Shown here: in pieces, positions 1,526 to 52,620 of the stretch | How the letters are laid out: every line of letters begins with the position of its first letter | Position numbering within the stretch: position 1 is the stretch's first letter | Assembly (NCBI GenBank): GCA_951406725.2 | Contig: OX597826.1 | Location: 22,010,001 to 22,074,000, forward strand | From: Octopus vulgaris | Lineage: Eukaryota | Direction: 5' to 3' | DNA length: 64,000 nucleotides | Translations under genes and position numbers: made by a program | Notes under the pieces: generated by a model | Told to the model about the DNA's origin: nothing | The model's input: the letters and a program-made list of their open reading frames with translations, nothing else | Databases searched by the model: none

Positions 1526-1638
1526 TCTATATATATATGATTGATTGATTGATTGATTGATTGATTGATTCTAGTTTCAGCTCATGAGCTGTGGCCATGC
1601 TGGGGCACCGCCATTTGGTGTTGCTACATGGTTTTACT

Positions 1639-4600
1639 TCACGAAAGCTTTTTAGCAACTGCCATTTGGTGCATGAGAGAGTTCGATGCAGCTGCCCTCA
1701 TCTGCACCTCCTGCCGTGAAGTTGGTTCATCTGGGATACCTGACAGGAAGAGATCCAGTTTCATTTTAAAGACATCTGCATCCACCCCATGCAGGTCTCT
1801 TAGGTTCTTCGGGAGGATATTGAAGAGCTGTGGGCCTCGGAAGCCCAGGCTATCACAGTATCTTGTCCTACATCTTGATGGCAAATTTGGAGTCCTAGGC
1901 ACCACGCAGTGGCGCCCAGTTCTGGCATTTGTGTAACTCTCGATGCCAAAGTTTGGGACAAGTCCCTCCAGGATCTTCCAGATGTATATTATGGCATATC
2001 TTTCTCGCCTACGCTCCAAGGAATAGAGTTTTAATCTCTTGAGTCTTTCCCAGTAGCTTATATTCTGCATAGAGGCTATCTTCTTCGTGTAGCTACGTTG
2101 GATCGCCTCAAGTTCTGTGATCAACTTGACACTGGATGGTGACCATAACTGAGAGCAATAGTCAAAGTGGCTTAGGACAAGTGTCCTCCAGAGGACCATC
2201 ATGGTTTCTTGTTCTCTTGTTCTAAAGGTTCTGAGAATCCATCCGGCCAGTCGTCTACATTTCATTGCCAATTTAGCAACATGTACACGAAAGGTTGCGT
2301 CATCACTCATGTAAATACCCAGGTCACGCACTGATTGTGCCTCTGGGATTGCAATTCCTCCGGGTCCAGTGTATTCATTGGGTATTGCATTTAGTTTTGC
2401 ATGCTGATAGTATAAAGCTTGAAACTTTTCAGCATTGAACTGCATGCTATTCTTTTCGGCCCACTTGTATATTTTGTCCAGCTCACATTGCAGGCGTTTA
2501 CTGTCCTCAGGGTTCTGTATTGCCTGTGAAACTTTTGTATCATCTGCATAACTTGTGATCGTGGCTCTCTGCGTGGCTGAGGGCATGTCTGAGAGGGCCA
2601 TTATGAACAGTAGTGGTCCCAAAACAGTGCCCTGCGGAACACCGCTCACTATTTGCGTGTTAATGGAAGTGGCCCCATTGGCTACTACCACCTGACTTCT
2701 ATCTTTCAGAAAGTCATGAAGCCATTCTCCCAGTTTTCCAACTATGTTAAGATCACGCAGTTTGTGACATATCATTCCATGATCGACTTTATCAAAGGCC
2801 TTTGCAAAGTCGGGATATATCACTTCCACATTTGAGTGGTTGAGCAGTCGTTTCAGCACCCAGTCATAGTGTTGTAGGAGCTGAGTTAAACAGCTTCTCC
2901 CTGGTCGGAAACCATGTTGGGTGTCGGGCAGCAAGTCATTTTCTTCAAGGAAGGTGATCAGTTTCCTTCTGACTATTCGTTCCATGACCTTGCTGATGTG
3001 TGAGGTCAGAGAGATAGGTCTGTAGTTCTTGGCCTCCGCTCTGCTACCTCCTTTATGAATAGGGCATATTTTACCTCCCTTCAGTTTTCTTGGAAGTTTG
3101 CCAGCTGCAAGGAAGCTCTGAAAGAGGAACTGCAGTGGTCTTGCTAGGACTCTCTTACATACTTTTAGGAGGATTGCCGGGAATCTATCGGGGCCAGTAG
3201 CTGAGTCTGTTTTCATTTCATCTATAGCCTTTATTACATCGTCTTCCTTTATATCGATGTAATTTATCGTCGCCGCCTCTGATTTTATATCTGCAGTGGT
3301 AAAGAAGTCAGTTGGATTGGTGATTTGGAAATGCCCAAGGGGTGGAGTGAAAACACTCTTGAATTGTTCATTCAGTATTTCACTTACCCTCATTGGTTTT
3401 CCTGTGAGTGTGCCATCCTTGTCAAGGAGTGGCCCTATCCTACTGCGCACCGTAGCTGTTTCTTTGGCATACCTGTAGAAAGCTCTGGGGTTAGATTTTA
3501 TGTTGTCTATAGCCCAGGCTTCTTTGTCTGCTCTTTCCTTTTCATGGGAGAGTTGCAGACATTTTTCAATTTCCAACAGTTTTATTTTCAGGCGGGACTT
3601 TTCACTGCTTTCAATTTGTTTGTTTAGGCGATTTGAAATTTTTGTACGCCGTCTCATTAAATTTTTTCTCTCTCTGGGGATTTTGTTCTTGTGTACAGTG
3701 GCCTTTCTCTCTGGGACACATTTGTAGCATATGGCTTGCATTACAGACATGAATTGTTGAAGTTTCACGTCGATGTCCGGCGAGGAGAGACATTCAGGCC
3801 AGTTTTGTTTGAGGATCTCTTTCTCAATTTGTTTCCAGTTTGCCTTACGGTAGTTCAAGCTGGAAAGATTCTGAGGGTTTCTTGTAGGCTGCATGTCCGT
3901 GCTCTCTTTTGGCCCGTACATGGTCAGCTCTACCATGTTGTGATCCGAGAGTAGTGTCGGTGTCACTTTCACATTATGGATGAGATCCATATTATTTGTG
4001 AAGCAGAGATCCAGTGTGTTACCTGCCCTGGTTGGTTGGAGTATTACTTGCTCCATGTACAGGGTGTTGATGAGGTTCAAGAGGGACCTCGCCTGTCCTC
4101 GTTCACATCTTGTCATTCCTGGGAGAGAAAGGCCCTCGGGCCATCTGACATTGGGTAGATTTAAGTCTCCCATAAGAAGTACACTTATGTGTTGTTCTAA
4201 TGTGATTAGAACTTCTATTTTTATAAGGCAGTCTTCAAACTTGCCTACATGGCTTGGGGCATCTGGAGGGCGATATGTAGCACACACAACTACATCAAGT
4301 TGCCTTATATGTACAATTAGTGTGTCACACACCGAGTTTGAGTATGACAAAAGGACCTGGGGTGTGAGGTCCTCACGGATGTACATAGCAACTCCTCCAT
4401 GACTCCTTTCTTTTCTGTCGGTCCGTAGTACAACATACTGTGGTATGTGTAATTCCGCATCTGCTATGTCCGGTTTCAGGTGCGTTTCCGTAAGTGCTAT
4501 GCATAAGGCTTGATTGCATGCAACAAAGTCTCTCAAGAACGGGATTTTTGTCCTGTTGCTGAGTGTTTGCAGTCCTCTGATGTTCAGTAGGAGCATCGAG

Positions 4601-4740
4601 GTGAGGTGTATGTTGTTGCCGGCGGTGTCCATCTTGGGTCTGTTTGCTGTGGTGGTCTTGTATATTGTGGGTAGTCCCACCTGCGAGCTTGGGTTTGATG
4701 AAGCCAGGTTAGCTGCTGTACAATCTTTTGTGCCTTGCAC
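1639..4740 (-). CDS. LINE-A ORF2: APE endonuclease plus reverse transcriptase (open, but with changes at conserved sites)
   Basis: APE motifs [16 protein letters not shown] and SDH; RT motifs [30 protein letters not shown] and YADD. Carries YPDF, GPDRF and GDLN where copy 4 has YLDF, GPDGF and GDFN. Confidence 0.92.
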   Translation of the reverse strand: MQGTKDCTAANLASSNPSSQVGLPTIYKTTTANRPKMDTAGNNIHLTSMLLLNIRGLQTLSNRTKIPFLRDFVACNQALCIALTETHLKPDIADAELHIPQYVVLRTDRKERSHGGVAMYIREDLTPQVLLSYSNSVCDTLIVHIRQLDVVVCATYRPPDAPSHVGKFEDCLIKIEVLITLEQHISVLLMGDLNLPNVRWPEGLSLPGMTRCERGQARSLLNLINTLYMEQVILQPTRAGNTLDLCFTNNMDLIHNVKVTPTLLSDHNMVELTMYGPKESTDMQPTRNPQNLSSLNYRKANWKQIEKEILKQNWPECLSSPDIDVKLQQFMSVMQAICYKCVPERKATVHKNKIPRERKNLMRRRTKISNRLNKQIESSEKSRLKIKLLEIEKCLQLSHEKERADKEAWAIDNIKSNPRAFYRYAKETATVRSRIGPLLDKDGTLTGKPMRVSEILNEQFKSVFTPPLGHFQITNPTDFFTTADIKSEAATINYIDIKEDDVIKAIDEMKTDSATGPDRFPAILLKVCKRVLARPLQFLFQSFLAAGKLPRKLKGGKICPIHKGGSRAEAKNYRPISLTSHISKVMERIVRRKLITFLEENDLLPDTQHGFRPGRSCLTQLLQHYDWVLKRLLNHSNVEVIYPDFAKAFDKVDHGMICHKLRDLNIVGKLGEWLHDFLKDRSQVVVANGATSINTQIVSGVPQGTVLGPLLFIMALSDMPSATQRATITSYADDTKVSQAIQNPEDSKRLQCELDKIYKWAEKNSMQFNAEKFQALYYQHAKLNAIPNEYTGPGGIAIPEAQSVRDLGIYMSDDATFRVHVAKLAMKCRRLAGWILRTFRTREQETMMVLWRTLVLSHFDYCSQLWSPSSVKLITELEAIQRSYTKKIASMQNISYWERLKRLKLYSLERRRERYAIIYIWKILEGLVPNFGIESYTNARTGRHCVVPRTPNLPSRCRTRYCDSLGFRGPQLFNILPKNLRDLHGVDADVFKMKLDLFLSGIPDEPTSRQEVQMRAAASNSLMHQMAVAKKLS

Positions 4741-51340: not shown

Positions 51341-51429
51341 AGTGAAACCAAGTAGCAACACCAAATGGCGGTGCCCCAGTATGGCCACAGCTCATAAGCT
51401 GAAACTGGAATCAATCAATCAATCAATCA

Positions 51430-52620
51430 TATATACACATATATATATATATATATATATATATATATATACACACACACACACACACACACATACACAC
51501 ACATATATATATATATATATACACACACACATATATACACACACATACACATATATATATATATATATATATATATACATACACATATATATATATATAT
51601 ATATATATATATATATATACATATATATATATATATATATATATATATATATATATATACATATATATATATATATATATATATATATATATATATATAT
51701 ATATATATATATATATATATATATATATATATATACATATATATATATATATATATATATATATATATATATATATATATATATATATATATATATATAT
51801 ATGTATATATATATATACATATATATATATATACATATATATATATATATATATATATACATATATATATATATATACATACATATATATAATATATACA
51901 TATATATATATATACATATATATATATATATACATATATACACATATATATATATATATACATATATACACATATATATATATATACATATATACACATA
52001 TATATATATACATATATACACATATATATATATACATATATATACACATATATATATACACATATATATATATATATATACATATATATATATATACATA
52101 TATATATATATATACATATATACATATATACATATATACATATATATATATATATATACATACATATATATATATATATATATACATATATATATACATA
52201 TATATACACATATATATACATATATATATATATACATATATATATATACATATATACATATATATATACATATATACATACATATATATACACATATATA
52301 TACACATATATACATATATATATACATATATATATACATATATATATACACATATATACACATATATATACATATATATACACATATATATACATATATA
52401 TATACATATATATATATATATATATACATATATATATATATATATATACACATATACACATATATACATATATACATATATACATACATATACAGATATA
52501 TACATATATACATATATACATATATATATACATATATATATATATACATATATATATACATATACACATATATACATATATATATACATATATATATATA
52601 TATATATATATATATATATA
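51430..52620. repeat. (TA)n/(TACA) microsatellite, about 1.2 kb
   Basis: Read directly from the sequence. Confidence 0.98.

What the first reader, a model, noticed from the sequence alone, without database searches (positions are those of the whole stretch)
1526..52620. All LINE-A/LINE-C copies abut (TA)n: microsatellite-targeted integration
Seen: copy 1 (3' end at 1539), copy 2 (both ends, 3' end about 20 bp away), LINE-C (both ends), copy 3 (3' end) and copy 4 (both ends) all sit against TA repeats. The element's own tail is (TCAA)n, so the TA is probably target rather than tail. Established: microsatellite-specific non-LTR elements exist (Dong, Waldo, Kibi/Koshi), mainly in the R4, R1 and Tx1 clades. 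Inference: strict (TA)n targeting by a CR1-group APE would be unusual and could act as a safe-harbour strategy in a TA-rich genome.
Basis: partly seen in the sequence, partly recalled or inferred. Interest (0 to 1): 0.7.

Follow-up and report, generated by a model that had tools for sequence, protein, structure and literature searches.

The report
Octopod LINE lineage favours TA microsatellites
All five copies of one CR1-like retrotransposon lineage in this octopod window end at TA repeats and two truncated copies have a TA-containing repeat on both sides, so it likely prefers to insert into TA microsatellites, probably by pairing read-through RNA with a nicked repeat rather than through a strictly sequence-specific nuclease.

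Summary
Observation largely real; 'strict' is not shown. LINE-A/C is an octopod APE+RT lineage with CR1-like motifs. (TA)>=5 begins within 45 nt of the conserved 3' motif in 5 of 5 copies (background 0.16), against 3 of 13 RTE-type ends (Fisher p=0.007) and 0 of 3 ends of a SINE that shares the LINE's 3' hairpin. Two different 5' truncation points (copy 2, LINE-C) abut TA-containing repeats, so TA is target there, not only tail. Corrections: only 3 of 5 copies have the (AATC)n tail; copy 1's 5' junction is not TA; copy 3's lies in a gap; copy 4's is undefined. Against strict nuclease targeting: the hairpin-sharing SINE avoids TA, one RTE-type element also has TA on both sides, and a plain TpA preference gives p=0.04 with arrays as assembled. 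The longest array holds a mosaic of LINE-A scraps, so its length is suspect. Best reading: TA preference from TpA nicking plus read-through (UA)n RNA priming (inferred). No paper found on a (TA)n-targeting CR1. n=5, one window; genome-wide flanks unchecked.

The parts
1539..5121 (-). LINE-A copy 1: ORF2 1639-4755 (1038 codons open), partial CCCH ORF1, (AATC)8 tail; 5' junction on a 163-bp tandem repeat
1528..1538 (.). 11-bp TA run at copy 1 3' end, followed by a Helitron-like CTAG/hairpin end (label from recall)
28242..28286 (.). (TA)22 at copy 2 3' end, continuing into CA-type repeat
28287..30657 (-). LINE-A copy 2, 5'-truncated inside the endonuclease region, ~93-bp internal deletion, A-rich non-(AATC) tail; 91-93% identical to other copies
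30657..30732 (.). compound TATA/(GATA)7/(TA)16/(TG)n microsatellite at copy 2 5' junction
32785..32821 (.). (TA)18 at LINE-C 3' end
32822..33398 (-). LINE-C: 5'-truncated 3' fragment, 66% amino-acid identity to LINE-A, same clade (99/99), same 3' hairpin
33399..34202 (.). interrupted TA array between LINE-C 5' junction and the 3' tail of an RTE-type element
34205..36307 (-). control: RTE-type (GAT)n-tailed element with internal tandem amplification, TA arrays on both sides
38944..41297 (+). LINE-A copy 3, 5' end lost in a 100-N gap, short (AATC)n tail
41298..45780 (.). 4.5-kb TA array between copy 3 and the candidate 5' end of copy 4; length suspect
44612..44711 (+). collinear scraps of the last ~320 nt of LINE-A interleaved with TA: likely consensus mosaic, possibly a sixth polymorphic insertion
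45781..47501 (+). candidate 5' UTR of copy 4 (CpG o/e 1.72 in the first 320 nt, then tandem repeats); unverified
47502..48392 (+). copy 4 ORF1, 296 aa, CCCH finger and weak Myb/SANT-like match (both below Pfam cut-offs)
48221..51340 (+). copy 4 ORF2, 1039 codons open: APE (48380-49072) + RT, no RNase H, no CCHC
51363..51428 (+). 3' UTR double stem-loop and (AATC)4 tail of copy 4
51429..52620 (.). 1.2-kb interrupted TA array at copy 4 3' end
11640..11998 (+). control: SINE-like element sharing the LINE-A/C 3' hairpin, not in TA
12258..12390 (+). control: second, partial copy of that SINE, not in TA
59428..59870 (+). control: third copy of that SINE, flanks not TA, carries an internal TA array (59590-59634)
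5876..8391 (+). control: LINE-B, another CR1-like element (PHD-like ORF1 by eye, gap, decayed 3' part) ending (TTA)9(TA)14

Best explanation
LINE-A and LINE-C are one octopod lineage of APE+RT retrotransposons with CR1-like motifs whose copies here end at TA repeats, and they likely insert preferentially (not strictly) into (TA)n because the endonuclease is predicted to nick TpA steps and read-through RNA carrying (UA)n would pair with the nicked repeat to prime reverse transcription. Steps: (1) shown: intact APE and RT in copy 4, a conserved 3' hairpin, TA at 5 of 5 3' ends and at two 5' truncation points; (2) from established LINE biology: ORF2p binds the 3' hairpin and performs target-primed reverse transcription; (3) inferred: copies 3 and 4 have no poly(A) hexamer in the 3' UTR and LINE-C has one only at its very end, so transcripts would run into the flanking TA; that (UA)n would anneal to a T-ending primer in any TA array, making TA both tail and target, adding TA with each insertion and keeping the lineage in arrays; (4) inferred: a SINE using the same hairpin but ending without (UA)n would not be guided, as seen in 0 of 3 copies.
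For: 5 of 5 3' ends at TA vs background 0.16, vs 3 of 13 RTE-type ends (p=0.007), 0 of 3 hairpin SINE ends (p=0.018), 4 of 17 all controls (p=0.005). TA-containing repeats at two different 5' truncation points. Three different terminal tails are all followed by TA. All five junctions can be read as an A shared by tail and TA (weak, only two registers exist). The first 37-40 nt of TA are pure at 3 of 4 long 3' junctions (fourth 0.95) and impure at both verified 5' junctions (0.82, 0.93) (weak). Hairpin with compensatory changes shared by LINE-A, LINE-C and the SINE. APE fold, pLDDT 92, best match LINE-1 endonuclease, TM 0.73. Precedent for read-through annealing raising target insertion: R2Ol (PMC6530143, passages); tail-target pairing in CR1/L2/RTE (PMC6007223, passages).
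Against: n=5 in one TA-rich window (15.5% of non-LINE bases). Copy 1's 5' junction is not TA and its 3' TA is 11 bp. An RTE-type element (34205-36307) has TA on both sides and LINE-B also ends in TA, so the region captures or seeds TA for other families too. A TpA-only null gives 0.525 per insertion, p=0.04, with arrays as assembled (2.7e-6 if each is capped at 50 bp). The SINE copies are ~13-15% diverged and may have been moved by another family. Copies 1 and 2 carry a variant poly(A) hexamer in the 3' UTR. No transcript, empty allele or genome-wide flank was seen.
Confidence: 0.5

Rival explanations
1. Regional sink or passive accumulation: no family-specific targeting; a generic TpA/AT preference plus very long TA arrays makes many retroelements land or survive here.
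For: 52.5% of TpA steps outside LINE-A/C bodies lie in the arrays; RTE-type element with TA on both sides and a second abutting the next array; LINE-B ends in TA; four of five copies lie in one 28-53 kb TA-rich stretch. Drosophila Waldo-A/B are read this way for CA repeats (PMC3812793, passage).
Against: 5 of 5 still exceeds controls (p=0.005-0.026); copies 1 and 2 sit at short arrays (11 and 45 bp) where the TpA null is about 0.08; array lengths are probably inflated.
Confidence: 0.2
2. One reading: the endonuclease (or the ORF1 Myb-like domain) recognises (TA)n sequence-specifically, as for R1/Tx1 site-specific elements.
For: 5 of 5 3' ends; same junction register in the three (AATC)-tailed copies; weak Myb/SANT match in ORF1 (E=0.005 on the 73-aa piece, below cut-off).
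Against: Hairpin-sharing SINE 0 of 3 in TA; copy 1 5' junction lacks TA; the model matches LINE-1 endonuclease better than TRAS1 (E 6e-15 vs 1e-9), which says nothing positive for specificity.
Confidence: 0.15
3. Microsatellite seeding only: TA is part of the tail and is deposited at random sites, as for snake CR1-L3.
For: 3' adjacency is what seeding predicts (PMC6050309, passages); 3' TA is purer than 5' TA; copy 1 has TA only at its 3' end; about half of zebrafish ZfL2-2 copies carry extra 5' nucleotides (PMC4245944, passage), which could mimic 5' repeats.
Against: TA at two unrelated 5' truncation points, one running 800 bp; copy 2's flanks read as two halves of one (TG)n(TA)n(CA)n repeat with a 10-bp inverted match beyond the TA.
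Confidence: 0.1
4. Assembly artefact: arrays and junctions come from consensus errors or misjoins at TA.
For: LINE-A scraps interleaved with TA at 44612-44711; two 100-N gaps next to LINEs.
Against: Copies are 91-98% identical with distinct flanks, tails and truncation points; short arrays at copy 1, copy 2 and LINE-C have unique outer flanks.
Confidence: 0.05

Closest known systems
CR1 / CR1-Zenon LINEs of molluscs and their partner SINEs (PMC10294476, PMC11481361, PMC4824008; passages only); 13 recently active CR1 families in Octopus vulgaris (PMC13282606, first third of text and passages)
   Same: APE+RT without RNase H, 3' stem-loop shared with a SINE, simple-repeat tail
   Different: No insertion preference for (TA)n in the passages read; ORF1 here has a CCCH finger, not the PHD/esterase types recalled for CR1; exact family correspondence untested
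Microsatellite-targeting non-LTR elements: Waldo/Mino (ACAY, AC), Kibi/Koshi (TC, TTC), Dong (TAA) (PMC3812793, passage); Togen (TG) and some HERO (PMC4640811, passages); Rex6 at TA is recalled, not checked
   Same: Copies lie inside a simple repeat, with repeat at truncated 5' ends; head-to-tail pair in one array (copies 3 and 4, if 45781 is the 5' end)
   Different: Those belong to R1, Tx1 or restriction-like-endonuclease lineages; this lineage has CR1-like motifs, the target is TA, and strictness is not shown
Snake CR1-L3 microsatellite seeding (PMC6050309, passages)
   Same: CR1-type 3' ends adjacent to an expanded microsatellite
   Different: There the repeat is a 3' tail; here it is also at 5' truncation points and follows three different tails
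R2Ol/R1Bm read-through annealing (PMC6530143, passages; PMC6007223, passages)
   Same: Proposed priming by downstream target sequence in the RNA
   Different: Shown experimentally there, in rDNA; only inferred here

Membership tests
CR1-group LINE | ORF2 with N-terminal APE followed by RT | tested here: met
   Pfam Exo_endo_phos_2 and RVT_1 above cut-off; APE fold
CR1-group LINE | No RNase H and no C-terminal CCHC finger | tested here: met
   No such Pfam match; CCHC pattern absent
CR1-group LINE | 3' UTR stem-loop and tandem-repeat tail | tested here: met
   13-pair structure, 3 pairs with two-sided changes; (AATC)n in 3 of 5 copies
CR1-group LINE | RT phylogeny within CR1/CR1-Zenon against labelled references | not testable with these tools
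   No clade-labelled library; the tree has only unlabelled hits. RT and C-terminal motifs look CR1-like from recall
CR1-group LINE | ORF1 with PHD, esterase or RRM domain (recalled; variable in the group) | tested here: not met
   Only weak CCCH and Myb/SANT matches below cut-off
Sequence-specific microsatellite-targeting LINE | Nearly all 3' junctions in the target repeat | tested here: inconclusive
   5 of 5 in this window; genome-wide not available
Sequence-specific microsatellite-targeting LINE | Target repeat also at 5' junctions | tested here: inconclusive
   2 yes, 1 no (possibly nested with LINE-B), 1 gap, 1 undefined
Sequence-specific microsatellite-targeting LINE | Empty sites hold the uninterrupted repeat | not testable with these tools
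   No second individual, orthologous locus or reads
Sequence-specific microsatellite-targeting LINE | Endonuclease selects the target sequence | not testable with these tools
   Needs biochemistry; the hairpin SINE at 0 of 3 is indirect evidence against
Microsatellite-seeding LINE | Repeat only at 3' ends | tested here: not met
   TA-containing repeats at the 5' junctions of copy 2 and LINE-C

The most novel reading that the evidence does not exclude
The first microsatellite-specific lineage of the CR1 group: an active octopod LINE clade that homes to (TA)n by RNA-guided priming, lengthens the arrays it lands in and so builds its own target, driving the TA expansion of octopus genomes; the mosaic at 44612-44711 is a still-polymorphic insertion with its empty TA allele.
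Probability: 0.3. Interest if true: 0.7.

Novelty: new variant of a known kind. Interest (0 to 1): 0.42.

Why it matters
Most reported target-specific non-LTR elements fall in early-branched, Tx1 and R1 lineages (PMC4640811, passage). A TA-homing CR1-type lineage would be an independent origin of targeting, and if guidance lies in read-through RNA it would merge the 'seeding' and 'targeting' views into one feedback loop and offer a cause for long TA arrays in octopods. The hairpin-sharing SINE and the open-framed copy 4 make the RNA-versus-nuclease question directly testable. If it is only passive accumulation, it is ordinary.

Tried and rejected
Sequence search of the endonuclease against PDB chains: 0 hits. 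ESM Atlas for ORF1: no usable hit; for the ORF2 C-terminus only unnamed clusters; neither gave a clade. ORF1 homologue search: 2 hits, both Octopus; it did not fix the 5' end. Supplements of PMC11481361 searched for three tail motifs: 0 of 8 files; figures held as images could not be seen. tRNA and Rfam scans: nothing, so the SINE's tRNA head is unconfirmed. Alignment-score null for the mosaic at 44612-44711: the genomic null was uninformative because TA-rich windows outscored it (max 131 vs 88 observed); it exceeded 156 of 156 internal LINE windows and 500 of 500 shuffles, and 6 of 1794 non-LINE windows share any non-microsatellite 10-mer with it. Rejected: copies 3 and 4 as a recent duplication (about 96% identity, different downstream flanks); copy 2's upstream as LINE-A 5' UTR (only (TAGA)n similarity); copy 1's missing 5' part elsewhere in the window (none). 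Target-site duplications cannot be read inside TA. Dropped before counting: 2 of 12 BLAST rows (14-bp internal reverse matches at 34270 and 58474).
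Full report
Setting. The window is 35.5% GC with two 100-N gaps; merged (TA)>=5 runs cover 11.9%. The best named relatives of the element's proteins are from Argonauta and Octopus, so the source is an octopod. Four LINE-A copies (91-98% identical over the last kb) and the LINE-C fragment (66% amino-acid identity) form one clade with the octopod hit (support 99/99). Copy 4 has open ORF1 and ORF2; ORF2 is APE+RT with no RNase H or CCHC finger, and the endonuclease model (pLDDT 92) matches LINE-1 endonuclease best. 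The CR1 label rests on this architecture and on motifs I recall; no clade-labelled references were available.

Observation. All five 3' ends meet (TA)>=5 within 45 nt of the conserved terminal motif. The background for non-LINE positions is 0.16. At (TA)>=8 copy 1 drops out (4 of 5). Tails differ: (AATC)n in copies 1, 3, 4; other A-rich tails in copy 2 and LINE-C. At 5' ends, LINE-C is cut directly against an 800-bp TA array and copy 2 against TATA(GATA)7(TA)16. These are different truncation points inside ORF2, so the repeat cannot be element sequence there. Copy 1's 5' junction is on a CpG-rich 163-bp repeat that is probably the 5' UTR of the oppositely oriented LINE-B (inference), so it is either a true non-TA junction or a nested insertion. 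Copy 3's 5' end is in a gap. Copy 4's is undefined; a CpG-rich stretch starting exactly where the 4.5-kb array ends (45781) would make it a 5.65-kb element with TA on both sides, but no second copy confirms this.

Controls. RTE-type (GAT)n-tailed ends: 3 of 13 at (TA)>=5 (10 scored after dropping 2 internal matches; 3 more judged by eye, one of which has 4 TA units). A SINE-like family shares the LINE-A/C 3' double stem-loop with compensatory changes and a LINE-C-like tail; 0 of 3 ends are in TA. LINE-B: 1 of 1. Fisher tests give p=0.007, 0.018 and 0.005 (all controls 4 of 17); with the 10 ends alone p=0.026; at (TA)>=8 p=0.02. Results against family-specific targeting: one RTE-type element (34205-36307) has TA on both sides, and 52.5% of TpA steps outside the LINE bodies lie in arrays, so a plain TpA preference gives 5 of 5 with p=0.04; with each array capped at 50 bp the figure is 2.7e-6. 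Which applies depends on true array lengths at insertion.

Assembly caveat. Within the 4.5-kb array, 44612-44711 holds scraps of the last ~320 nt of LINE-A in the right order, interleaved with TA. This looks like a consensus of two read classes. It makes the array length unreliable and may hide a sixth, polymorphic insertion with TA on both sides (inference).

Mechanism. Shown: enzyme domains, hairpin, junctions. From LINE biology: target-primed reverse transcription with hairpin recognition. Inferred: the APE nicks TpA steps, which are densest in (TA)n; copies 3 and 4 lack a poly(A) hexamer and LINE-C has one only at the very end (copies 1 and 2 have a variant one), so RNA would run into flanking (UA)n, anneal to a nicked array and prime there. 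This accounts for TA after three different tails, TA on both sides of truncated copies, slightly purer 3' TA and the unguided SINE. Read-through annealing raises R2Ol insertion efficiency (PMC6530143, passages) and tail-target pairing is proposed for CR1, L2 and RTE (PMC6007223, passages). Rivals: regional sink (0.2), nuclease specificity (0.15), seeding only (0.1), artefact (0.05).

Literature. Searches returned no paper whose listing or read passages describe a (TA)n-targeting CR1-type LINE; one search returned none on a CCCH ORF1 in such elements; one search gave the seeding papers. Seen as passages only: PMC4640811, PMC3812793, PMC6050309, PMC10294476, PMC4758252, PMC4824008, PMC11481361 (supplements searched in 45), PMC4245944, PMC6007223, PMC6740152, PMC6530143; PMC13282606 first third plus passages. 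Kojima and Fujiwara 2004, Ichiyanagi and Okada 2008, Repbase and Dfam entries were not seen and may already note this; repeat libraries in unread supplements may bear on the family's name and target.

Verdict. A real, statistically supported local association, with evidence that TA is a target at two junctions; strict, nuclease-encoded targeting is unproven and partly contradicted. New variant of a known kind; interest 0.42.

Noticed in passing
44612-44711: Collinear scraps of the LINE-A 3' end interleaved with TA inside the 4.5-kb array; likely consensus mosaic of filled and empty alleles or mis-polished reads.
   Followed up: partly
11640-11998, 12258-12390, 59428-59870: SINE-like family sharing the LINE-A/C 3' double stem-loop: a candidate LINE-SINE partnership. 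One copy has an internal TA array where another has only a few units, a second source of TA repeats.
   Followed up: partly
47502-48392: ORF1 with a CCCH finger and weak Myb/SANT match; N-terminal half differs among copy 1, copy 4 and Octopus hit P0122. Part of it is fused into an Octopus lipin gene model (P0121), probably an annotation artefact.
   Followed up: partly
5120-8391: LINE-B, a second CR1-like element head-to-head with copy 1, with 163-bp CpG-rich monomers upstream of a PHD-like, glutamine-rich ORF1; ends (TTA)9(TA)14.
   Followed up: partly
1160-1526: Helitron-like unit (TC start, hairpin plus CTAG end; label from recall); copy 1's short TA run may be the start of a second tandem unit.
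   Followed up: no
34374-36307 and 37618-38312: Tandem amplifications (62, 160, 350 and 155-bp periods) inside or beside RTE-type elements, bounded by TA arrays.
   Followed up: no
32609-32790: 182-bp palindromic, MITE-like element directly beyond LINE-C's 3' TA run.
   Followed up: no
33399-34202, 36308-37366, 51429-52620: Interruptions in long TA arrays are strand-biased: nearly all C on the sense strand of the element whose 3' end they follow.
   Followed up: no
62900-63247 (-), 17250-17558 (-), 18667-20500 (-): Decayed Penelope-like GIY-YIG piece, a zf-RVT piece and an RTE-like RT remnant (first two below Pfam cut-offs).
   Followed up: no
38389-38465 and 38767-38843: Exact 77-bp direct repeat ending at the gap upstream of copy 3.
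   Followed up: no
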